Of a stretch of 64,000 nucleotides of DNA, positions 24,054 to 38,704 are shown piece by piece (within the stretch, counting starts at the first letter, position 1; each line of letters opens with the position of its first letter). The position numbers and the translations under genes were made by a program. Source of the DNA: Gemmatimonadota bacterium. Its GTDB lineage: Bacteria; Gemmatimonadota; Gemmatimonadetes; Palauibacterales; Palauibacteraceae. The notes under the pieces are model-generated. The model did no database searches, was not told the DNA's origin, and saw only the letters and a list, made by a program, of their open reading frames with translations. The stretch lies in NCBI GenBank assembly GCA_046484665.1, contig JAWOIN010000180.1, forward strand, positions 333-64,332, given 5' to 3'.

Positions 24054-24097
24054 CTGTGGCGAACGCCACCGCTCCTCTCGATCCGAAAGGTCGGTAC

Positions 24098-24589
24098 ATG
24101 CGACTGGCTTTCCTCTGCGTCACGGTCGGAATGCTCACGCTCGCCGCGTGCGGGGACGACGATCCGACCGGGCCCGCGGCCCCGAACCTGGTCGGCGCCT
24201 ACGACGGGACGTGGACGGTGACGGTGGAAGGGCCGGGGCTCGAGACGACCACGCAGGTCTGCGCGGGCACGGTCATGGTCACCGACCAGTCGGGAGGGGT
24301 CTTCGAGGGCACCTTCTCCCAGTCCGCGAGCGAGGACTGCGAGGCCGGGAGCGGCTTCGTCACGGGCACCGTCGCGGCGGACGGCGCGGTCTCGCTGCTG
24401 CTCGGCGCGTCCGGGGGTGGCGGGCCCGCGTTCGAGGAATCGACGGGGTGCACACTCCTGTCGGCCGACGATCGGTATTCCGGCTCCTACGCGGAGGGGG
24501 CGCTGTCGTTCGAGACCAGCCTGACCGCGCAGTGCCCGGAGTCCGGGAGCGTCACCGTGGTCTGGACGTTCGCCTTCGCCGGATCGTAG
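24098..24589 (+). CDS. Lipoprotein of unknown function
   Basis: ATG at 24098 gives MRLAFLCVTVGMLTLAAC, a lipobox. Its last ~56 codons are duplicated as a decayed copy at 31124..31327. Confidence 0.7.
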   Translation: MRLAFLCVTVGMLTLAACGDDDPTGPAAPNLVGAYDGTWTVTVEGPGLETTTQVCAGTVMVTDQSGGVFEGTFSQSASEDCEAGSGFVTGTVAADGAVSLLLGASGGGGPAFEESTGCTLLSADDRYSGSYAEGALSFETSLTAQCPESGSVTVVWTFAFAGS

Positions 24590-25361: not shown

Positions 25362-25689
25362 GATCCCCTCCCCTCGTCGTCCCGATGGCCAGCCCTCCAG
25401 CGAGCTTCACCCGGGAGAACCGGGAAGGGGCTCCGTTCGTGCCCGACGGCGCATCGGCGGACCCGCGCCGCCGGTTTCGCCGGGCGCGGGCCCGCGGCCG
25501 TGAGGCTGCCCGGACGTTCACGTCCCCGGCCGCTCCTTCCTGCATTGTCGCCGGATCGGGGATCGCGCAGGTTTCCGATCGTCGGGAGGTCGGAAGATTC
25601 CGCTGCGGGAACCTCGGCGGCCGCGGATCCGGTTTCGTCGACGGAAGAACGCCCGCAGGAGACGTCATGAGGTCATCGCACGGAAGGGT

Positions 25690-26403
25690 GTGGTGAGTCG
25701 CACGGAGCTCTGGGCCCAGGTCCGCATGGCGTGGTCCGTGCTCTCGGGCCAGGTCGCCCACGAGGTGCATCCGGGCCGCGAGCGGATCGAAGTCGCGCCG
25801 GCCCCGGACCTCGGTCCGGAGGCGGGAGGCGCGATCGCGGCCGAAGGGTTCGCCGAGGAGGCGCTTCCCTGGCTCGACGCCGTTCACGCGTTCACGCTCC
25901 GTCTCACGGGCGGCGACCGCGACGCGGCCGAGGACCTCGTGCAGGACACGTTCGTCCGGGCGCTCAGGTTCTGGCACACGTTCGAGCGGGGCACGCACGT
26001 GCGGTCCTGGCTGTTCACGATCTGTCGGAACACGTTCCTTCACGGGCGGGACAGCGCCCGATCGCGGAGGGAGAAGCCGTTGGCGGACATGGACCCGAGG
26101 GCCGAGGCGCTGGTCGGCATCCGGTCGCTGGGGCGGCCCGCGCCCGATCCGGAGGAGGAGTTCTTCTCCCGCCTCATTCACGACGAAGTCGTGGACGCGA
26201 TCGACGCGCTGCCCCCGGATTTCCGGGACGTACTCGTCCTCAGCGACCTGGGCGACCTCAACTACGCCGAGATCGCGACCGTCCTGGAGATCCCGGTGGG
26301 CACCGTGAAGAGCCGCCTGTTTCGCGCGCGGAGACAACTTCAGGAGCGGCTGCGGGAGTTCGCCGTTCGCGAGGGGTACGCAGACGTGCCGGAGGAAGCA
26401 TGA
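25690..26403 (+). CDS. ECF sigma factor (SigR-like)
   Basis: Region 2 (EDLVQDTFVRALRFWHTF, RSWLFTICRN) and region 4 (LNYAEIATVLEIPVGTVKSRLFRARRQL) motifs. Its stop overlaps the anti-sigma ATG. The start is uncertain (25690 GTG or 25726 ATG). Confidence 0.85.
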   Translation: MVSRTELWAQVRMAWSVLSGQVAHEVHPGRERIEVAPAPDLGPEAGGAIAAEGFAEEALPWLDAVHAFTLRLTGGDRDAAEDLVQDTFVRALRFWHTFERGTHVRSWLFTICRNTFLHGRDSARSRREKPLADMDPRAEALVGIRSLGRPAPDPEEEFFSRLIHDEVVDAIDALPPDFRDVLVLSDLGDLNYAEIATVLEIPVGTVKSRLFRARRQLQERLREFAVREGYADVPEEA

Positions 26404-26675
26404 TCCGAAGAGCGATGGGAATGATCTCCTGCGACGAGGCGATGCGCCGTCTCTGGGAGTTCCTCGACGCGGAGCTCGGTCCCGAGGAGGAGGCCGAGGT
26501 GCAGCGGCATCTCGAGGTCTGCGAGAAGTGCTATCCGCAGTACGACTTCCAGCGGGCGTACTTCAGGTTCATGCATCGGGTCGCGGAAGGGGAGCGCGCG
26601 ACGCCCGCGTTTCGCCGTCGCCTGTTCCGCAGGCTGCTCGAGGCGCAATCGGCGGAGGAGGACCGGAATGAGTGA
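26400..26675 (+). CDS. Cytoplasmic zinc-binding (ZAS, RsrA-like) anti-sigma factor
   Basis: 91 aa, no TM helix. Cys near the N-terminus (MISCDEA) plus the H-x3-C-x2-C motif (HLEVCEKC). ATGA overlap with the sigma gene. Confidence 0.8.
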   Translation: MIRRAMGMISCDEAMRRLWEFLDAELGPEEEAEVQRHLEVCEKCYPQYDFQRAYFRFMHRVAEGERATPAFRRRLFRRLLEAQSAEEDRNE

Positions 26676-26749: not shown

Positions 26750-27712
26750 TCACGCGGACCGCGTCGCCGGGCGGGCGAGCGCGACGGCGAACAGGCCGTC
26801 GGCGTCGGTGTCCCACCTGTCCAGACGGAATTCGCCGTCCTCGAGCAGGCGCGTGGCCGACTCGCGCGTGAACTTGTGGCTCAGCTCGGTGCAGATGGAC
26901 TCCCCGGGGGCAAACGTAAGGCGCATGTCCAGCGCGGGAAGGTGAATCGTCTGGGTCCTGGTGGAGACCAGATGCATCTCGATGCGGGAATCCGCTTCGT
27001 TCCACACGGCCCGGTGAGCGAACGCCTCGGGATCGAAGTCGGAGCCCAGGTGGCGGTTGAGGACGAGCAGTGCGTTTCTGTTGAACGCCGCCGTGACGCC
27101 CCGGGCGTCGTCGTAGGCCGCCACGAGGCGTCGCCGGTCCTTCATGAGGTCGAATCCGACGAGGAACGCGTCCGCGGGCGCGAGACGCTCCCGGACGTCT
27201 CTCACGAAGGACGCGGCGGCGGCCGGGGCGAGGTTCCCGATCGTGCTCCCCAGGAACAGGACGAGCCGCGGCCCTCCGTCGGCTCGCAGGGCGAGGTCGT
27301 CGTGGAAGTCGGCCACGACGCCGTCCACCTCGAGGTCCGGGTAGAGTCCGGAGAGGCGCTCCGTGGCACCTCGAACCGCCTCCGGGCTCACGTCGACGGC
27401 TCGATACCGGCGCAGGCACCCCTGCCGCACCCCCTCGTCGAGAAGGATCTCCGTCTTCCCGGAGCTCCCGGATCCGAACTCGATCAGCGCCGCGGGTCGG
27501 ACCGAATCGATGAGCAGCGCGGCCGCGCGCTCGAGAATCGACCGTTCCGTCCGGGTCAGGTAGTACTCGGGCAGGCTCGTGATCTCCTCGAACAGCCGCG
27601 ACCCCCGGGCGTCGTAGAAGTACTTGGGCGGCAGGGTGCGCGGCGGCCGTCCCAGGCCCTCCCTGACATCGGTCGCGATGGAGCGACGCAGCGGGCCGGG
27701 GTCCGCGCTCAT
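26750..27712 (-). CDS. egtD: L-histidine N-alpha-methyltransferase (EgtD/EanA family)
   Basis: PPKYFYDARGSRLFEEITSLPEYYLTRTE, IEFGSGSSGKT and FLGSTIGN motifs typical of EgtD. ATG at 27712 overlaps the upstream stop (ATGA). Confidence 0.85.
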   Translation of the reverse strand: MSADPGPLRRSIATDVREGLGRPPRTLPPKYFYDARGSRLFEEITSLPEYYLTRTERSILERAAALLIDSVRPAALIEFGSGSSGKTEILLDEGVRQGCLRRYRAVDVSPEAVRGATERLSGLYPDLEVDGVVADFHDDLALRADGGPRLVLFLGSTIGNLAPAAAASFVRDVRERLAPADAFLVGFDLMKDRRRLVAAYDDARGVTAAFNRNALLVLNRHLGSDFDPEAFAHRAVWNEADSRIEMHLVSTRTQTIHLPALDMRLTFAPGESICTELSHKFTRESATRLLEDGEFRLDRWDTDADGLFAVALARPATRSA

Positions 27713-28455
27713 CGGTACTCCGGGTTCGGATAGTCGAACCGGCAGCCGGCGTCCCACTCCGAGCGCTGGTTGCCGTGCGCCGGGATCCCGCCCCGGTCCC
27801 TCAGCATCCGGGCGAGGTGCAGGAGGTTCCAGGTCATGAACGTGGTGTTGCGGTTCGTGAAGTCGTTCTCCGGCCCCCCCGACCCCGGGTCCAGGTACGA
27901 GGGCCCGGGCCCCGCCTCTCCGATCCAGCCCGCGTCGGCCTGTGGCGGGACCACGTAGCCGAGGTGCTGGAGCGAGTAGAGAATGTTCATCGCGCAGTGC
28001 TTGATCCCGTCCTCGTTCCCGGTGACGAGGCAGCCCCCGACGCGGCCGTAGTAGGCGTACTGGCCCCGCTCGTTCAGGATGCCGGAGCTGCCGTACAGGC
28101 GCTCGATCACCTGCGTGCACACCGAGGACTTCTCTCCGAGCCAGATCGGCGTGCCGAGCACGAGGATGTCGGCCGCCATCACCTTCTCCTGGATCTCCGG
28201 CCAGTCGTCGCGCTCCCAGCCGTGCTCGGTCATGTCCGGATACACGCCGTGCGCGATCCGGAAGTCGACGGGACGCAGCAGCTCCACGGAGACGCCGTTC
28301 CGCTCGAGGATCGCCCGGGAGATGACCATCAGGCCCTCGGTGTGCGAGAGCGTCGGGCTCGGTTTCAGCGTGCAGTTGAGGAACAGGGCGCGCAGGTCCG
28401 AGAAGTCCCATTCGTGGCGCTCGCAGTCGGCGAGCTGGCGGTCGCTCAGCGGCAT
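27709..28455 (-). CDS. Flavodoxin-fold NAD(P)H-dependent FMN reductase-like protein
   Basis: GAGGAG RBS and ATG at 28455. LFLNCTLKPSP...ADILVLGTPIWLGEKSS pattern of the NADPH-dependent FMN reductase family. Translationally coupled to the egtD-like gene. Confidence 0.65.
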   Translation of the reverse strand: MPLSDRQLADCERHEWDFSDLRALFLNCTLKPSPTLSHTEGLMVISRAILERNGVSVELLRPVDFRIAHGVYPDMTEHGWERDDWPEIQEKVMAADILVLGTPIWLGEKSSVCTQVIERLYGSSGILNERGQYAYYGRVGGCLVTGNEDGIKHCAMNILYSLQHLGYVVPPQADAGWIGEAGPGPSYLDPGSGGPENDFTNRNTTFMTWNLLHLARMLRDRGGIPAHGNQRSEWDAGCRFDYPNPEYR

Positions 28456-28717
28456 CGGTTCGCTCCTCTCGGGCGGTGAAAGTAGTTGCCCGGCCGTGTT
28501 CGTGCGTCCGCACGACGGGTCTGCGCGAGGACTCGTCCGGCAAGTCCGCACGCCCGCTCCCTCCTCAAACACCGGCCGTGGTCGGATCGGTTCCCCCGTA
28601 CGCCGAGGGACCCACGGAAACCCCCCGTCGCCATCGCGCCGGGTCGCCCGCCGGCCTACGTTTGGCTCCCGCATTCCGTCTCTTGAACATACTCGCGAGC
28701 CCCGGAAGGATCTCACC

Positions 28718-30019
28718 TTGAGAAACAGGCCGGACAGTCTTTCCACCACGGAGCTGCTCGCGCTTCTCGACGCTCCCGGCGCGCAGATCGTGGACGTCCG
28801 TCCCATCGACGCCTACAACGGATGGCGGCTGCAGGGGGAGAGCCGGGGAGGGCACATCCGCGGGGCGAGGACGCTGCCCTTCAAGTGGAGCGCCTACCTC
28901 GACTGGATCGAGATCGTCCGTGCCAAGGAGATCCGGCCGGAGCACGACCTCGTCCTGTACGGCTACGATCCGGAGGAGACGGCACGCGTCGCGGACAGGT
29001 TCCGGCGGGCGGGCTACACCCGCATCGCGGCCTATCACGACTTCGTGACGGAGTGGTGCACGGACGAGGCCCTGCCCATGGATCGCCTGGCGCGGCACGA
29101 GCACCTGGTGCCCGCCTCGTGGCTCGCGGAACGGCTCCCGGGGACGGATGCTCCGGACGCCGTCGGCGACGGTTTCGTCCTCTGCCACGCGCACTACCGG
29201 AACCGGGACGACTACCTGAAGGGGCACGTTCCCGGCGCCCTGGACCTCGACACCCTCCTTCTCGAATCCCCGGAGACCTGGAACCGCCGGGCTCCCGAGG
29301 AGGTGCACCGCGCGCTGCTCGGGCTGGGAATCACCTCGGACACGACGGTCGTGCTGTACGGCAGATACTCCTTCCCCGACAACCGCGACCCTTTTCCGGG
29401 GAGCAGCGCCGGCCAGCTGGCGGCGTTCCGCTGCGCCTTCATCATGCTCTGGGCCGGCGTGAAGGACGTCCGCGTCCTCAACGGGGGCTTCCAGTCCTGG
29501 ATGGACGCGGGTCTCGAAGTCTCGACGGACGAAGGCGAGGCACGGCCGGCGGCGGAGTTCGGGTCCCCGATCCCGGGGGCCCCCGAGCTCGCCGTGGACC
29601 TGCCCGAGGCGAGGGAGATCCTCGTCGCGCCGGACGGAAACCTCGTGAGCGTGCGCAGCTGGCCGGAGTACGTCGGCGAGGTGAGCGGTTACAACTACAT
29701 CGAGAAACGGGGCCGGATCCCCGGCTCCGTGTTCGGGAGCTGCGGAAGCGACGCCTACCACATGGAGAACTACCGCAACCTCGACCACACGACACGGGAG
29801 TACCACGAGATCGAGGCGTCGTGGCGGAGCGCCGGGATCACGCCCGCCAGGCGGAACGCCTTTTACTGCGGCACCGGGTGGCGGGGGAGCGAGGCCTTCT
29901 TCAACGCGTGGCTGATGGGCTGGCCCCGCGTCGCCGTGTTCGACGGTGGATGGTACGAGTGGAGCGCCGACGACGCGAATCCCATCGAGACCGGCGTCCC
30001 GGTCGGGCGGGTCCGGTGA
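28718..30019 (+). CDS. Multi-rhodanese sulfurtransferase, EanB-like (hercynine sulfurtransferase candidate)
   Basis: GGAAGGA lies 7 nt before the TTG at 28718; there is no in-frame ATG upstream. Several rhodanese-like segments, with the catalytic loop FYCGTGWRGSE near the C-terminus. 433 aa. Divergent from the egtD-like operon. Confidence 0.7.
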   Translation: MRNRPDSLSTTELLALLDAPGAQIVDVRPIDAYNGWRLQGESRGGHIRGARTLPFKWSAYLDWIEIVRAKEIRPEHDLVLYGYDPEETARVADRFRRAGYTRIAAYHDFVTEWCTDEALPMDRLARHEHLVPASWLAERLPGTDAPDAVGDGFVLCHAHYRNRDDYLKGHVPGALDLDTLLLESPETWNRRAPEEVHRALLGLGITSDTTVVLYGRYSFPDNRDPFPGSSAGQLAAFRCAFIMLWAGVKDVRVLNGGFQSWMDAGLEVSTDEGEARPAAEFGSPIPGAPELAVDLPEAREILVAPDGNLVSVRSWPEYVGEVSGYNYIEKRGRIPGSVFGSCGSDAYHMENYRNLDHTTREYHEIEASWRSAGITPARRNAFYCGTGWRGSEAFFNAWLMGWPRVAVFDGGWYEWSADDANPIETGVPVGRVR

Positions 30020-30471
30020 CGGGCACCCCGGCCGGCGACCGGTCCCGGTCCGTCGAGGCGGCAGGGGACGCGATCATCGCCGAGATGGCGGGTCTCGACG
30101 ACCTGATGGCGAAGTACGAGTACCTCGTCGGGCTGGGGAGGGAGCTGCGCGTCCCGGATGCGGCGATCCGCCGCGACGAGCACTCGGTCGCGGGATGCCA
30201 GTCCCGCGTCTGGATCCGCACGGAGCTCCGCGACGGTCGGCTTCACATCGTGGCCGACAGCGACGCGATGATCACCCGGGGGATCATCGCGCTCATCCTG
30301 CGGCTGCTGGACGCCCGCACGCCGGCCGAGATCCTCGCGGCCGACCTCAGGGTCTTCGACGCCGCGGGGTTGCAGACGCATCTCTCGCCGGCCCGCGCCA
30401 ACGGGCTCGCCGCCATGGTCCGACGGATCCGCCAGGAGGCGGAGAAGGCGGCGAGCCCGGGAGAACCGTAG
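30016..30471 (+). CDS. sufE: SufE-like sulfur acceptor/donor protein
   Basis: KYEYLVGLG...SVAGCQSRVWI motif with the conserved Cys. GTG at 30016 overlaps the rhodanese TGA (GTGA). Confidence 0.8.
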   Translation: MTGTPAGDRSRSVEAAGDAIIAEMAGLDDLMAKYEYLVGLGRELRVPDAAIRRDEHSVAGCQSRVWIRTELRDGRLHIVADSDAMITRGIIALILRLLDARTPAEILAADLRVFDAAGLQTHLSPARANGLAAMVRRIRQEAEKAASPGEP

Positions 30472-30574: not shown

Positions 30575-31021
30575 TCAGCCAGCCGTCGCGGCCGCCGCTC
30601 CCGACTCGACGTGCGTCGGGACCGCCCCGTAGACCTGCCCGACGACGACTCCGTACACAAGGTGTCCGATCAGGCTCCCCATCGCCATGACCGCGGAGCC
30701 GGAGAAGACCGGCATTCCCATCATCGGAATCACGAGGAGCTGCGCCATCAGGAACGGCGCGATCGCGTAGAGTGCTCCCCGCAGGGCCGGGGCGCCGGGA
30801 AGCCGCGGCGCGAGCACGGCGTAGCCGACGGCCAGGATCACGCCGATCATGAAGTGCGCCATCCAGCCCAGCACGAGGCTGCCGCCCATCGCGCCGGCCA
30901 GCATCTGCGCCGGGTTCATCGGCGGAATGCCCATCAGGGGCGCCATCCAGAGTCCCACGGCGGTCATCACGGCGGTGCCGATGATGCCCGCGGCCACGGC
31001 GCGTCCGGTCCGTACGTTCAT
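30575..31021 (-). CDS. Four-TM Met/Gly-rich membrane protein, unknown family
   Basis: 148 aa, hydrophobic throughout (GIIGTAVMTAVGLWMAPLMG, FMIGVILAVGYAVLAP, APFLMAQLLVIPMMGM, MGSLIGHLVYGVVVG). Confidence 0.6.
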   Translation of the reverse strand: MNVRTGRAVAAGIIGTAVMTAVGLWMAPLMGIPPMNPAQMLAGAMGGSLVLGWMAHFMIGVILAVGYAVLAPRLPGAPALRGALYAIAPFLMAQLLVIPMMGMPVFSGSAVMAMGSLIGHLVYGVVVGQVYGAVPTHVESGAAAATAG

Positions 31022-31123
31022 GTCTTCCTCCTTCGAGTGGACTCTTCAGGCGAATCCGGTTCCGTGCGTCCGTCGAGGACGCGTTCCGGAGACCGAACCG
31101 GGAGGGTCGCCGGCAGGTTCCGC

Positions 31124-31327
31124 GGCGGGCCCGCGTTCGGGGAAGCGACGGGGTGAACGCTCCTATCGGCCGACGACCGGTATACCGGCTCCTACGCGGA
31201 GGGGGAGCTGTCGTTCGACACCAGCCTGACCGCGCAGTGTCCGGAGTCCGGGAGCGTCACCGTGATCCGGACGTTCGCCTTCGCCGGCTCGCAGGCGACA
31301 TCGCGACCGGGCGGGAGCCCGGGCGTC
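31124..31327 (+). pseudogene. Decayed duplicate of the 3' end of the lipoprotein gene (right copy of the 204-bp repeat)
   Basis: About 92% identical to 24419..24622. TGC has become TGA (a premature stop) and the original TAG has become CAG. No 5' part of the gene is present. Confidence 0.75.
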
Positions 31328-31800
31328 ACTCTCGACCACCCGCCCGGGCTGAACGTCCGAGGCTGCTCGCGCAGCTGACGGCGAATCCGGCCCGGGCCGC
31401 CCCTCTTCGTATGGTCGGCTACTTGGTCGGACGTTTCTTCGATGCGGGCTTCGTGGACTTCGTCTTACCCGGAGCGGGCGGACGGGGTCTCGGCGGCGGC
31501 TGGCCCCTCTTGATCCAGCCGGGCTGACGCGGGGGGCGCTTCTCACCGGGTGGCATGATCAGCCGCCGTTCCGATCGTGGCTCCCAGCGCAACCGGCACA
31601 GACGCCGGCCGCTCGCAAGCACGCGAACACGTTACGACCCACCTGGAATCGACTCCGGTCATGGAGTGACCGACCTTCGCCCGTCAGAACGGCGGATCGA
31701 ATATCGCAGAGGTGCGAACCGGGCCGACCCCCTCTGCGCTTCTACGCCGTCCCGTCCCGACGTCCTTTCCGCTCGATCTTCCGCCCGCGATATTACGACA

Positions 31801-33627
31801 ATGTCCGACGGGACGCCTGCTTCGAGCCGCTTTTTCGCCGAACTGAGACGCCGCCGCGTGCCTCGCGTCATCGCGATGTACGGCGCGGCCGCGTTCGCCG
31901 TCATCGAGGCCGCGGACGCCGTTTTCCCCCGCCTGGCGCTGCCCGACTGGTCGGTGACGCTCGTCGTGGCCCTCGCCCTGCTCGGCCTCCCGGTCGTGGT
32001 CGTGCTCGCCTGGGCGTTCGAGATGACGCCGGAGGGGATGCGGCGGACGGCCGAAGCTTCGCCGGGCGAGCTGACGGAGATGCTCGCCGCCCCGGCGCAC
32101 AAGCAGTGGGCATCCGGTCTGCTGGCGCTCGCTGGCCTGATGGCGTTGCTCGCCGGAGCGTGGTTCGTGGGCCGCCAGTCGGCGCCCGCGGAAGACACCG
32201 AACGGGTGGAGAAGGGTCCCGTCGCGGCTTCTGTGGCGGTGCTGCCGTTCGTCAACATGAGCTCCGACGACGAGCAGGAGTACTTTTCCGACGGGATTTC
32301 CGAGGAGCTCCTCAACCTGCTGGCGAAGATCCCGGAGCTTCGGGTCGCGTCGCGGACTTCCGCGTTCTCCTTCAAGAACCAGAACCTCGAGATCCCGGAG
32401 ATCGCCCGGCGCCTCGACGTGGCACACGTGCTCGAGGGCTCGGTGCGGAAGGCGGGCGATGAGGTGCGGATCACGGCACAGCTCATCGACGGGCGCTCGG
32501 ACACGCACCTCTGGTCGGCCACGTGGGACCGGACGCTGGAGGACATCTTCGCCGTGCAGGACGAGATCGCGGCGGAGGTGGCGGCGCAGCTCAAGGTGAC
32601 TCTGCTCGGCGAGCCACCGCACGTGGAGGAGACGGACCCTGAGGCGTACGCCCTGTTCCTGCAGGCCCGCCAGCTCGGACGACAGGGCACGGCCGCGGGG
32701 TTCGAACGGTCGAACGAGCTGCTGCGACAGGCGCTCGCGATCGACTCCGCGTATGCACCGGCGTGGAGCGAGCTGGCCGCGAACCTATTCGTGCAGGCGG
32801 GCGTCATGTCCGGAGGACAGCAGCCGTTCGACGCGAGAGTCCGGCCGGCCAGGGACGCGGCGGAGCGGGCGCTCGCGATCGATCCCCGCTACGCGCCCGC
32901 CCACGCCACGCTCAGTCGGATCGCCAACGCGTTCGAGGGAGATCTCGCGGAGGCGGCCCGGCGGATGGAGCGCGCGCTCGAGCTCGCACCGACCGATTCC
33001 GACATTCTCAGCGGCGCAGCGATCCTGGCCTCGGACCTGGGACGGCTGGACGAGTCGATCGCACTCCAGGGGCGCGCGGTCGCGCTCGACCGGGTGAATC
33101 CCCGCAGCTACCTCAACCGGGGGCTCCTCTATCAGAGTGCCGGCCGTTGGGACGAGGCGATCTCCCAGTTCCGGACCGCCCTCGACCTGGCCCCGAGCAG
33201 CGTAGCCGCCCACCACAGCATCGGGCGGGCGTTGCTCGGCAAGGGCGAGTTCGAGGCGGCGCTCGCGGCCAACGAGCGGGAGCCGGACGAGGGATGGAGG
33301 CTGCTCGGGCGCGTGGCGGCATATCACGACCTGGGCCGGGCGGCGGACTCGGACGCCGCGCTCCGGGAGCTGATCGCGAAGTACGGGCAGGAAATGGCCT
33401 ACAACATCGCCGGCGTGCTGGCGTACCGGGGCGAGGCGGACCGCGCCTTCGAGTGGCTGGGCAAGGCCGTGGAGTACGGCGACCCGGGCCTGTCCGAGAT
33501 CCCCCTGGATAGGCAGTGGTTTTCCAACCTGACCGACGAGCCACGCTGGATCCCGTTCCTCGAGAGCATCGGAAAGTCGCCTGGTCAGCTCGCCGCGATC
33601 CAGTTCGAGGTCCGGCTCCCGGAGTAG
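31801..33627 (+). CDS. TM-anchored TolB-N-like plus TPR-repeat protein (paralog 1)
   Basis: N-terminus FFAELRRRRVPRVIAMYGAAAFAVIEA, a second TM helix, VAVLPFVNMSSDDEQEYFSDGISEELLNLLAKI module, then TPR repeats and C-terminal WIPFLESIGKSP. Confidence 0.8.
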   Translation: MSDGTPASSRFFAELRRRRVPRVIAMYGAAAFAVIEAADAVFPRLALPDWSVTLVVALALLGLPVVVVLAWAFEMTPEGMRRTAEASPGELTEMLAAPAHKQWASGLLALAGLMALLAGAWFVGRQSAPAEDTERVEKGPVAASVAVLPFVNMSSDDEQEYFSDGISEELLNLLAKIPELRVASRTSAFSFKNQNLEIPEIARRLDVAHVLEGSVRKAGDEVRITAQLIDGRSDTHLWSATWDRTLEDIFAVQDEIAAEVAAQLKVTLLGEPPHVEETDPEAYALFLQARQLGRQGTAAGFERSNELLRQALAIDSAYAPAWSELAANLFVQAGVMSGGQQPFDARVRPARDAAERALAIDPRYAPAHATLSRIANAFEGDLAEAARRMERALELAPTDSDILSGAAILASDLGRLDESIALQGRAVALDRVNPRSYLNRGLLYQSAGRWDEAISQFRTALDLAPSSVAAHHSIGRALLGKGEFEAALAANEREPDEGWRLLGRVAAYHDLGRAADSDAALRELIAKYGQEMAYNIAGVLAYRGEADRAFEWLGKAVEYGDPGLSEIPLDRQWFSNLTDEPRWIPFLESIGKSPGQLAAIQFEVRLPE

Positions 33628-36698: not shown

Positions 36699-36883
36699 CG
36701 GTCCGTCTCCCGGTTCGGGTCACGTGATGGGCGTCCCGGCGGCACGATCTCCCCGGGACGCCGATGCGCACGGGAGACGATGCGGCACGCGCGTCCGCAC
36801 GGCGAGCCCGGCCGGCGGCGCTCGACTCCTGCCGGCGTCGCGCCCACTTCCCGAACCGCCATTCGGGCACGATCTTGTCCGCC

Positions 36884-38704
36884 ATGTCGAGCGGAGCCTC
36901 CGGGTACCAGCGCTTCTTCGCCGAGCTGAAGCGCCGTCGCGTCTTCCGCGTGATCGCGGCCTACGGCGCGGTGGCGTTCCTCGTCCTCCAGCTGGCCGAC
37001 CTGCTGGGCGAGGGGCTTCGCCTGCCCGAGAGCTTCCTTCCTCTCGTCACGGCGATCGTCCTGGTCGGATTCCCGATCGCCGTCGTGCTCGCCTGGGCGT
37101 TCGAGGCCACGCCCGAGGGGATCCGCCGGACGGAGGACGCCACGGCGGCCGAGCTCGCGGAGATCCTCTCCGCTCCGCGCTCCAGGCGTTGGCCGGCGGG
37201 CGTTCTCGCGCTCGGCGGCCTGGCGGCCCTGCTCGCGGGGGCGTGGTACGTCGGCCGGTCGTCGGCTGGAAGCCCGGCGACGGACGGGGCGTCGGGCGTC
37301 CTGACAGGGGAAGTCTCGATCGCCGTGCTCCCGTTCGCCGACATGAGCCCGGACGGCGACCAGGAGTACTTCTCGGACGGGATCTCCGAGGAGCTCCTGA
37401 ACCTGCTGGCGAAGATCCCGGACCTCCGCGTCGCGTCCCGCACGTCGGCGTTCTCCTTCAAGGGCCAGAACCTCGAGATCCCGGACATCGCCGGGCGGCT
37501 CGGCGTGGACCACGTGCTCGAAGGGTCCGTTCGGAAGGCCGGCGACGAGATCCGGATCACGGCCCAGCTCATCGACGCCCGCACGGACACGCATCTCTGG
37601 TCGGAGACGTGGGACCGGACGCTCGAGGACGTGTTCGCCGTACAGGACGAGATCGCGGCGGAAGTCGTGCGCGAGCTGAAGGTCACCCTGCTCGGAGAGG
37701 CTCCGCACATCGAGGAGACGGACCCGGAGGCTTACGCTCTCTTCCTCCGGGCCAGGGAGCTGAACCGTCGAAGCTCGGTCGACGCGTACGAGCGCGCGGT
37801 CCAGCTGCTGGAGCAGTCGCTGGCGATCGACTCGACCTATTCCCCGACGTGGGCGGCCCTCGCGGTCGTCTACACGAATCAGACGGGGTTCGGTCTGCGG
37901 TCCTTCTCGGAGGGCGTCGAGCTCGCGAGGGCCGCGACGCGGAGGGCCATCGCGCTCGACTCCACGAACGCCGACGCCCACGCGATCCTGGGCCACGTCG
38001 CGATGTACTTCGACGACGATCTCGCGGCCGCCGCCCGTCACCTGGACCGGGCTCTGGAGCTCGCGCCGTCGGACGCGCGCATCCTGGGAGCCGCCGCCAC
38101 TCTCGCGGGGAATCTGGGACGCCGCGAGGAAGCCCTCGCCCTCCAGGAGTACGTCGTGCTCATCGATCCGGTGACTTCGAGCGCGCGCTCGAACCTCGCC
38201 CTCAACTACAGGAACGCCGGGCGCTGGGACGAGGCGATCGCGGAGCACCGGCTCGCTCTCGATCTCGCGCCTGACAACCTCGGCCAGCATCACGGCATCG
38301 CGCTGTCTCTGCTGGGAAGGGGCGAGCCGGAGGCCGCGCTGGCGGAGAACGAGAAGGAGCCGGACGAGGGGTGGCGCCTGCTGGGGCGGGTCGCGGCGTA
38401 CCACAGTCTCGGGAGGAAGGCCGAGTCCGATGTGGCGCTCTCTGAGCTGATCGCGAAGTACGAGCAGGAGATGGCCTACAACATCGCCGGCGCGTACGCC
38501 TGGCGGGGCGAGCCCGACCGCGCCTTCGAGTGGCTCGCGAAGGCCGTCGAGTACGGCGACCCGGGCCTCTCGGAGATACCGCTGGACGTCCAGTGGCTCT
38601 CGAGCCTCCACGACGACCCGCGCTGGATCCCCTTCCTCGAGAGCATCGGGAAGTCCCCGGAGCAGCTCGCCCGGATCGACTTCGACGTGGAGCTGCCCGG
38701 GTAG
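36884..38704 (+). CDS. TM-anchored TolB-N-like plus TPR-repeat protein (paralog 2)
   Basis: Same architecture as 31801..33627 and collinear with it (FFAELKRRRVFRVIAAYGAVAFLVLQ...IAVLPFADMSPDGDQEYFSDGISEELLNLLAKI...WIPFLESIGKSP). Confidence 0.8.
   Translation: MSSGASGYQRFFAELKRRRVFRVIAAYGAVAFLVLQLADLLGEGLRLPESFLPLVTAIVLVGFPIAVVLAWAFEATPEGIRRTEDATAAELAEILSAPRSRRWPAGVLALGGLAALLAGAWYVGRSSAGSPATDGASGVLTGEVSIAVLPFADMSPDGDQEYFSDGISEELLNLLAKIPDLRVASRTSAFSFKGQNLEIPDIAGRLGVDHVLEGSVRKAGDEIRITAQLIDARTDTHLWSETWDRTLEDVFAVQDEIAAEVVRELKVTLLGEAPHIEETDPEAYALFLRARELNRRSSVDAYERAVQLLEQSLAIDSTYSPTWAALAVVYTNQTGFGLRSFSEGVELARAATRRAIALDSTNADAHAILGHVAMYFDDDLAAAARHLDRALELAPSDARILGAAATLAGNLGRREEALALQEYVVLIDPVTSSARSNLALNYRNAGRWDEAIAEHRLALDLAPDNLGQHHGIALSLLGRGEPEAALAENEKEPDEGWRLLGRVAAYHSLGRKAESDVALSELIAKYEQEMAYNIAGAYAWRGEPDRAFEWLAKAVEYGDPGLSEIPLDVQWLSSLHDDPRWIPFLESIGKSPEQLARIDFDVELPG

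What the first reader, a model, noticed from the sequence alone, without database searches (positions are those of the whole stretch)
27709..30471. Accessory genes translationally coupled to the ergothioneine genes: a flavodoxin-fold reductase (ATGA overlap with egtD) and SufE (GTGA overlap with the rhodanese)
Both accessory genes overlap their partners by 4 nt, which implies stoichiometric co-expression. SufE (GCQSRVW motif) is a persulfide shuttle, so a dedicated SufE next to an EanB-like enzyme suggests a private sulfur-delivery route to the catalytic cysteine. The FMN-reductase-like protein upstream of egtD has no role that I know of in ergothioneine synthesis. It could supply reducing equivalents for persulfide or polysulfide turnover, or for ergothioneine disulfide recycling. 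I am not aware of this four-gene arrangement having been described.
Basis: inference. Interest (0 to 1): 0.55.

Follow-up and report, generated by a model that had tools for sequence, protein, structure and literature searches.

The report
Ergothioneine synthase with docked SufE carrier
This bacterium makes the antioxidant ergothioneine by the known oxygen-independent route; the small sulfur-carrier gene glued to the sulfur-inserting enzyme probably hands it sulfur directly (how the enzyme gets sulfur in cells is still debated), while the flavin-enzyme gene next door travels with ergothioneine makers of all kinds and is probably not part of that hand-over.

Summary
Both 4-nt overlaps are real, but the pairs are divergent: flavoprotein-egtD (minus), eanB-sufE (plus), in a Gemmatimonadota genome. 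EgtD and EanB keep the catalytic residues checked; no egtB was found. The SufE link is strong. SufE lies by eanB in 35 of 80 related loci, in every sufficiently long locus on one side of the EanB tree; SufS is lost there at least twice, SufE never. EanBs without local sufE sit in genomes with a housekeeping sufS-sufE (5/5). Here housekeeping SUF uses SufU. A predicted EanB-SufE complex scores 0.73 (best control 0.00), with the Cys61 loop at the interface. What loads SufE here is unknown. The flavoprotein is a RosB relative, not RosB. It is rare near eanB (2/80), also sits beside aerobic egtB/egtD, and its hosts nearly always have egtD (40/43 against 31-43% background). It looks ergothioneine- or stress-linked, not EanB-specific; EanB chemistry needs no reductant. 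The four-gene layout was seen only here. The scan already reported eanB-(sufS)-sufE on other DNA; the papers searched do not mention it. New variant of a known pathway.

The parts
26750..27712 (-). egtD/eanA, histidine N-alpha-trimethyltransferase, 320 aa
   Evidence: TIGR03438 345 bits against cut-off 291; PF10017; 14 of 14 substrate-site residues of M. smegmatis EgtD kept, list from memory, Met246/Glu276 checked against the 4PIP variant
27709..28455 (-). Flavodoxin-fold flavoprotein (PF03358), uncharacterised sister family of RosB, 248 aa, six conserved Cys (11, 28, 113, 142, 154, 238)
   Evidence: Pfam 44.6 bits; only PDB sequence hit RosB 5MJI, E 1.5e-38, RosB residues 3-205; Foldseek top hit 5MJI, TM 0.77, 34% identity; conservation
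27709..27712 (-). ATGA overlap, flavoprotein stop / egtD start
   Evidence: sequence
28456..28717 (.). Divergent intergenic region; holds a GGAAC-N19-GTT match (28568-28594, minus) facing the flavoprotein gene, possible ECF-sigma promoter
   Evidence: motif not enriched upstream of homologues, 6/114 against 6/114 on the opposite strand, so only a lead
28718..30019 (+). eanB, three-domain rhodanese-like ergothioneine synthase, 433 aa, inferred TTG start behind GGAAGGA
   Evidence: 624 bits to C. limicola EanB 6KTV against 277 to E. coli YnjE; Tyr325, Cys384, Thr386, Arg389 match Tyr353, Cys412, Thr414, Arg417 and are invariant
30016..30019 (+). GTGA overlap, eanB stop / sufE start
   Evidence: sequence; same -4 junction in 11 of 15 Gemmatimonadota loci
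30016..30471 (+). sufE, sulfur-acceptor protein, 151 aa, Cys61 and Arg127
   Evidence: PF02657 134 bits; aligns to E. coli SufE and CsdE; Cys kept in all 35 eanB-linked copies; predicted complex with EanB
25690..26675 (+). Context: ECF sigma factor (25690-26403) and soluble HxxxCxxC anti-sigma (26400-26675), convergent on egtD
   Evidence: Pfam and NCBIfam sigma-70 ECF hits; anti-sigma by motif only
30575..31021 (-). Context: DUF6789 membrane protein, convergent on sufE
   Evidence: PF20587; also next to flavoprotein homologues in 3 Bacteroidota loci and a Mesorhizobium plasmid

Best explanation
The locus makes ergothioneine without oxygen. EgtD trimethylates histidine to hercynine; EanB adds sulfur at C2 from a persulfide on Cys384, with Tyr325 as acid/base (established for C. 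limicola EanB; residues shown here). SufE is EanB's own persulfide carrier (inferred): it docks with its Cys61 loop on a patch made of EanB residues 57-66 and 344-357 and passes sulfane sulfur towards Cys384, possibly through the invariant Cys342. SufE is reloaded by a sulfur donor encoded elsewhere, most likely the housekeeping SufU-type SufS, otherwise the IscS-like enzyme or the SseA-like rhodanese (inferred, unresolved). The flavoprotein is outside this relay. It is a RosB-related flavoenzyme tied to ergothioneine producers of either pathway; my best guess is NAD(P)H-driven re-reduction of oxidised ergothioneine or its mixed disulfides in a thiol-stress response. Component odds: ergothioneine pathway 0.9; SufE binds EanB 0.75; SufE is the sulfur donor 0.6; flavoprotein not needed for EanB turnover 0.85; flavoprotein acts on or with ergothioneine 0.45.
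For: Identity; no egtB found in a 95.8% complete genome. SufE within 6 kb of eanB in 35/80 loci: 22 directly downstream, 13 as sufS-sufE. The EanB tree splits (FastTree support 96) into 39 rows of which 35, the window's included, have sufE (the other 4 are loci cut short) and 39 rows with none. On the sufE side SufS is lost at least twice. In 401 Gemmatimonadota genomes this SufE type (59% identity; next best 45%) occurs only in the two genomes with eanB. Five of five genomes from the sufE-less side carry sufS-sufE elsewhere. In this genome and 9 of 10 others with direct eanB-sufE the SufS found is SufU-type, His342 equivalent kept (none found in the tenth), so this SufE is not needed for housekeeping Fe-S assembly. 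Predicted complex: score 0.73, best of 3 controls 0.00; this mark was reached by 58 of 80 solved complexes and 2 of 110 mismatched pairs; runs agree in at least 92% of contacts; partner pLDDT at least 85. Flavoprotein: hosts have egtD in 21/22 Gemmatimonadota (background 78/200), 13/13 Bacteroidota (others 35/142), 6/8 Acidobacteriota (others 61/147); within 1.5 kb of egt/ean genes in 4/24 phylum genomes against about 0.06 expected; nine such copies are scattered over its tree, 8 changes, at least 4 forced.
Against: No experiment. In vitro, C. limicola EanB takes sulfur from polysulfide, needs only Cys412, and its site lies at the end of a 13 A tunnel thought closed to protein donors (PMC9103826). 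Cys384 is not among the listed interface residues. E. coli and B. subtilis SufS did not cross-react with each other's acceptors (PMC13066941), so the loader of SufE here is a real gap. C. limicola EanB differs at part of the predicted patch (Asp for Tyr60). The eanB-sufE link may be a single ancestral event, so the 35 loci are not independent. The flavoprotein is adjacent to egt genes in 0/22 Bacteroidota and Acidobacteriota genomes, most egtD genomes lack it, and no lifestyle-matched control gene was run.
Confidence: 0.55

Rival explanations
1. SufE binds EanB as an activator or sulfur acceptor, as Rv3284 does for the rhodanese SseA of M. tuberculosis; the sulfur itself comes from cellular polysulfide.
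For: [quoted passage not shown]
Against: Thirteen loci bring their own SufE-type SufS, without the SufU-binding His, next to sufE, which makes sense only for sulfur flow from cysteine; SufE Cys is kept in all 35 copies.
Confidence: 0.17
2. SufE only speeds a cysteine desulfurase so that diffusible polysulfide builds up; EanB uses that and never touches SufE.
For: Polysulfide is the direct donor in vitro and IscS was reinterpreted as a polysulfide source (PMC9103826); SufE raises SufS turnover up to 100-fold (PMC13066941).
Against: SufE, not SufS, is what stays beside eanB when one is lost; a specific complex is predicted.
Confidence: 0.12
3. (Concerns the flavoprotein only.) It is a general oxidative-stress flavoenzyme, for example a quinone or flavin reductase under a redox-sensing ECF sigma; it shares hosts and neighbourhoods with ergothioneine genes because both serve stress-exposed aerobes, with no chemical link.
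For: About 95% of its loci show no egt gene; plasmid copies sit among unrelated redox genes; an ECF/anti-sigma pair and GGAAC-GTT matches lie in this window; next structural neighbours are ArsH, SsuE and WrbA.
Against: Co-occurrence holds within Gemmatimonadota families (exact stratified P 2e-5, kin not independent); adjacency appears in several gene orders, with egtB and with eanB.
Confidence: 0.45
4. The first reader's module: all four genes form one unit and the flavoprotein supplies electrons for persulfide or polysulfide turnover on EanB/SufE.
For: Flavoprotein directly upstream of eanB on the same strand in two other genomes (L017/G167 and L085).
Against: 2/80 eanB loci; found beside oxygen-dependent egtB in G258, G267, G221 and L127; hercynine sulfurisation by a persulfide needs no external reductant (established mechanism, PMC10903977), and a reductase would rather drain persulfide.
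Confidence: 0.06

Closest known systems
EanA/EanB anaerobic ergothioneine pathway of Chlorobium limicola (PDB 6H98, 6KTV; reviewed in PMC10903977, PMC9103826)
   Same: Histidine methyltransferase plus three-domain rhodanese with Tyr353/Cys412/Thr414/Arg417 equivalents; no egtB found.
   Different: eanB is coupled to sufE and divergent from egtD; host encodes heme-copper oxidases; part of the predicted SufE-binding patch differs in C. limicola EanB; donor described there is polysulfide or IscS in vitro.
SufS-SufE and CsdA-CsdE persulfide relays of E. coli (PDB 8VBS, 4LW4)
   Same: SufE fold, catalytic Cys (61 for 51) and Arg (127 for 119); the same face is at the predicted EanB interface.
   Different: Proposed acceptor is a C-S bond-forming rhodanese, not SufB; no cognate SufE-type SufS in this genome, whose suf operon is sufC-B-D-ferredoxin-sufS-sufU.
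SseA-Rv3284 (SufE) of Mycobacterium tuberculosis (PMC12375888)
   Same: A rhodanese gene next to a sufE gene outside the suf operon; binding through the N-terminal rhodanese domain.
   Different: Two-domain thiosulfate sulfurtransferase, not an ergothioneine synthase; different SufE type (this genome's second, SseA-linked SufE is only 26% identical to the eanB-linked one).
Metallopterin-dependent ergothioneine synthase MES of Caldithrix abyssi (PMC9516567)
   Same: Cysteine-derived sulfur reaches hercynine by a protein-bound persulfide relay.
   Different: MES fuses the desulfurase to an unrelated molybdopterin module; here the relay would run between separate proteins.
RosB, 8-amino-FMN synthase of Streptomyces davaonensis (PDB 5MJI)
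   Same: Closest solved relative of the flavoprotein: flavodoxin core, 34% identity in the structural alignment, shared GNEDG motif.
   Different: No match to RosB's 52-residue C-terminus; own conserved C-terminal arm with Cys238; Cys28 and Cys154 where RosB has Thr and Val.

Membership tests
EanB ergothioneine synthase | Three rhodanese domains, closer to EanB than to YnjE | tested here: met
   3 PF00581 stretches; 624 against 277 bits
EanB ergothioneine synthase | Tyr353, Cys412, Thr414, Arg417 equivalents | tested here: met
   Tyr325, Cys384, Thr386, Arg389
EanB ergothioneine synthase | Encoded with a histidine-specific methyltransferase | tested here: met
   egtD 1.0 kb away, only copy in the genome
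EanB ergothioneine synthase | Converts hercynine to ergothioneine without oxygen | not testable with these tools
   needs an assay
EgtD/EanA histidine methyltransferase | Equivalog score above cut-off and histidine-specificity residues Met252/Glu282 | tested here: met
   345 > 291 bits; Met246, Glu276
SufE/CsdE sulfur acceptors | PF02657 domain with catalytic Cys and conserved Arg | tested here: met
Housekeeping SufE of the SUF Fe-S system | Cognate SufE-type SufS (no His342) in the genome, SufE in or serving the suf operon | tested here: not met
   operon has sufU and a His342-type SufS; below the NCBIfam SufE and CsdE cut-offs
SufE/CsdE sulfur acceptors | Accepts and passes on a persulfide | not testable with these tools
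   needs an assay
RosB (roseoflavin pathway) | Specialised 52-residue C-terminus and over 89% identity (PMC11039241) | tested here: not met
   alignment ends at RosB residue 205 of 257; residues 195-248 have no PDB match
NADPH-dependent FMN reductase family (PF03358) | Flavodoxin fold and Pfam score above cut-off | tested here: met
   44.6 > 24 bits; model pLDDT 87, Foldseek hits
NADPH-dependent FMN reductase family (PF03358) | Binds FMN and oxidises NAD(P)H | not testable with these tools
   needs an assay; RosB shows that this fold can do other chemistry
Iron-sulfur flavoproteins (Isf) | Compact four-Cys cluster motif (from memory) | tested here: not met
   the six Cys are spread out

The most novel reading that the evidence does not exclude
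SufE is an obligatory, directly docking persulfide donor for a large branch of EanB enzymes, here loaded by a SufU-type SufS (a cross-talk not reported in the papers read) and relaying through EanB's second invariant cysteine; and the RosB-related flavoprotein is a dedicated bacterial ergothioneine-recycling or ergothioneine-dependent enzyme.
Probability: 0.2. Interest if true: 0.75.

Novelty: new variant of a known kind. Interest (0 to 1): 0.52.

Why it matters
The in-cell sulfur donor of EanB is unsettled: the published work uses polysulfide or IscS in vitro. A small carrier that follows EanB across many phyla, stays when SufS is lost and docks in a model gives a direct test and would extend SufE beyond Fe-S assembly into small-molecule C-S bond formation. 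It could also help cell-based ergothioneine production with EanB. Separately, a widespread uncharacterised RosB-related flavoprotein gets a first functional lead, a tie to ergothioneine producers.

Tried and rejected
Four-gene conserved unit: rejected, seen in no other locus. Flavoprotein as RosB or roseoflavin gene: rejected. SufE as displaced housekeeping gene: rejected, suf operon has sufU. Hidden egtB: only partial FGE-domain hits, 72 bits against cut-off 360. Interface residues as markers of local sufE: no difference between the two groups, consistent with both having SufE somewhere but not discriminating. Conserved ECF promoter before the flavoprotein family: not enriched. Sigma-70 promoters and terminators: none found. 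Recent foreign origin: GC flat at 68-72%. Literature: no held paper has EanB with SufS; the search for ergothioneine, EanB and SufE listed none with both EanB and SufE among its top 20; the primary EanB papers are not held, so a remark there on SufE cannot be excluded. The second homologue search of EanB returned only the same branch. Not done: lifestyle-matched control gene for the flavoprotein-egtD correlation (genome cap), SufS-SufE complex prediction (one job only), Cys-Cys distances (no coordinates returned). The careful flavoprotein tree did not finish; the quick tree was used.
Full report
Observation. The four reading frames are intact. On the minus strand a 248-aa flavodoxin-fold gene (27709-28455) ends in ATGA, whose ATG starts egtD (26750-27712). 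On the plus strand a 433-aa rhodanese (28718-30019; TTG start inferred from a GGAAGGA 7 nt upstream) ends in GTGA, whose GTG starts a 151-aa SufE (30016-30471). The pairs diverge across 262 bp, so they are two units. A 4-nt overlap is ordinary in this genome (about 24% of close pairs by a crude count), but the eanB-sufE one is conserved in 11 of 15 Gemmatimonadota loci. The host is a 3.1-Mb, 95.8% complete genome whose closest EanB relatives are all Gemmatimonadota.

Core pathway. EgtD passes the TIGR03438 cut-off and keeps the substrate-site residues, including the Met and Glu changed in the 4PIP variant. The rhodanese scores 624 bits to C. limicola EanB and 277 to E. coli YnjE. Tyr325, Cys384, Thr386 and Arg389 correspond to the Tyr353, Cys412, Thr414 and Arg417 named in PMC10903977 and PMC9103826 and are invariant. 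No egtB was found, although the genome has heme-copper oxidases and egtD sits by egtB in 27 of the 30 loci examined in the phylum. So this lineage pairs EgtD with EanB in place of EgtB.

SufE neighbourhood. Of the 80 closest eanB loci, 35 have sufE within 6 kb: 22 directly downstream and 13 behind a SufS. They span Gemmatimonadota, Bacteroidota, Ignavibacteriota, Calditrichota, Bacillota, Spirochaetota, Planctomycetota, Fibrobacterota, Omnitrophota, Elusimicrobiota, Aminicenantes and Thermoplasmatota. On the EanB tree a branch with support 96 separates 39 rows, 35 with sufE (the window included) and four loci cut short, from 39 mostly Bacteroidota rows with none (three loci with a frameshift or fusion were left out). 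The link may therefore have arisen once, and the counts are not independent. What matters is the pattern of loss: SufS drops out at least twice, SufE does not. In 401 genomes of the phylum the close SufE type is found only in the two genomes that have eanB.

Complementary distribution. Five of five genomes from the sufE-less side have sufE next to a housekeeping sufS. This genome's suf operon is sufC-B-D-ferredoxin-sufS-sufU, and its SufS keeps the His that aligns with B. subtilis His342, the mark of SufU partners (PMC8918507). The same type was found in five other Gemmatimonadota and four of five other genomes with direct eanB-sufE. The SufS copies inside eanB cassettes lack that His. Thus every EanB of this branch that I tested has a SufE at hand, and brings its own where housekeeping uses SufU. 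The gap is the loader: E. coli and B. subtilis pairs do not cross-react (PMC13066941). Candidates here are that SufS, an IscS-like enzyme and an SseA-like rhodanese beside a second, distant SufE.

Predicted complex. EanB with SufE scored 0.73, best of three controls 0.00; the mark was reached by 58 of 80 solved complexes and 2 of 110 mismatched pairs (counts hold only roughly with my own alignments); runs agree in at least 92% of contacts; partner pLDDT at least 85. SufE uses residues 29-37, 57-64 (with Cys61) and 119-137 (with Arg127), the face known from SufS complexes, so memory of those may shape it; I know of no solved EanB-SufE complex. EanB uses 57-66, 321-322 and 344-357. Trp57, Tyr60 and Trp63 are invariant in both EanB sets (one search pattern covered this stretch in the first set), while C. 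limicola EanB differs at 60-62. Cys384 is not a listed contact, in line with the buried site described in PMC9103826. Cys342, two residues from the interface, is the only other invariant Cys; a relay role is a guess, since only Cys412 is needed with polysulfide in vitro. The SseA-SufE pair of M. tuberculosis (PMC12375888) is a precedent for SufE binding a rhodanese, and also the basis of the activator rival.

The flavoprotein. Its nearest solved relative is RosB, but it lacks RosB's defining C-terminus (PMC11039241) and has its own conserved cysteines. It is near eanB in 2 of 80 loci. I expected it to be incidental; the data say more. In Gemmatimonadota 4 of 24 other copies lie within 1.5 kb of egtB, egtD or eanB, against about 0.06 expected; so do 3 of 80 metagenome copies and one Clostridia copy. 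Gene orders differ, and the nine copies need eight changes on the tree, four forced by strong branches. Its hosts have egtD in 21/22 Gemmatimonadota (background 39%), 13/13 Bacteroidota (31%) and 6/8 Acidobacteriota (43%, P 0.08). The dependence is one-way: most egtD genomes lack it, and it was adjacent in none of 22 genomes of the two other phyla. That fits an enzyme that uses or recycles ergothioneine, or a stress gene of the same lifestyle; I could not run the control that separates these. It does not fit a part of the EanB reaction, which needs no outside electrons. Oxidised ergothioneine is known to be repaired by ascorbate, glutathione reductase or thioredoxin reductase (PMC9816654), so a dedicated enzyme is not required. 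An ECF sigma with a soluble zinc anti-sigma lies next to egtD, and GGAAC-GTT matches precede the sigma, the flavoprotein and the DUF6789 genes; the motif is not enriched before homologues.

What is known. EanA/EanB is established. No held paper links EanB with SufS and none surfaced for SufE, but the primary papers were unavailable. Earlier notes of this scan report eanB-eanA-sufS-sufE on other DNA; these are unchecked AI notes and I retested the claim. Added here: the SufS-less form in SufU-type genomes, the complementary distribution, the docked model, and the pathway-independent link of the RosB-related family to ergothioneine producers.

Verdict. Observation confirmed; interpretation partly supported. 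New variant of a known pathway, interest 0.52: nothing breaks a rule, but an open question becomes testable with a handful of proteins.

Noticed in passing
L065:6001-8247 and L067:6001-8250 (Bacteroidales): EanB and EgtD are one continuous frame of about 749 aa: natural single-chain anaerobic ergothioneine synthases.
   Followed up: no
L054, L055, L068, L087 (e.g. L055:8346-8924): A different PF03358 FMN-reductase subfamily (about 190 aa) sits inside or beside eanB-eanA clusters in Bacteroidales, a possible non-orthologous counterpart of the flavoprotein.
   Followed up: partly
L026, L050, L053, L054, L056, L061, L064, L066, L068, L070, L078, L087, L089; also L127, L208: DUF427 recurs next to eanB/eanA (13 of 80 loci) and next to egtB/egtD.
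   Followed up: partly
L023, L026, L034, L070, L121, L208, L263: A pyridine-nucleotide disulfide oxidoreductase recurs beside ergothioneine genes of both pathways: another candidate for ergothioneine recycling.
   Followed up: no
window 25690-26675, motif matches at 25608-25634, 28568-28594, 31096-31121: ECF sigma plus soluble zinc anti-sigma (also an ATGA overlap); a GGAAC-N18/19-GTT match lies before the sigma, flavoprotein and DUF6789 genes. The same sigma pair lies about 3 kb from the flavoprotein and egt genes in G267 (L263).
   Followed up: partly
L002:487-1947 (G000 contig C85): Second SufE, 26% identical to the eanB-linked one, divergent from an SseA-like two-domain rhodanese, like the M. 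tuberculosis pair.
   Followed up: partly
G408 (L021 and L273): One Gemmatimonadales genome carries both egtB-egtD and eanB-sufE, so possibly both aerobic and anaerobic routes.
   Followed up: no
genus g17 genomes, e.g. G198:C1:1350377-1355106, G137:C20:23133-26197: A distant SufE type lies 2-12 kb from egtD in about a dozen genomes of one genus; may be shared synteny only.
   Followed up: no
window 31555-33627 and 36764-38704: Two paralogous TolB-like/TPR membrane proteins; a DNA stretch of the lipoprotein gene at 24056-24589 appears repeated near 31150-31330.
   Followed up: no
window 30575-31021; L284, L286, L291, L303: DUF6789 lies next to flavoprotein homologues in three Bacteroidota genomes and a Mesorhizobium plasmid.
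   Followed up: partly
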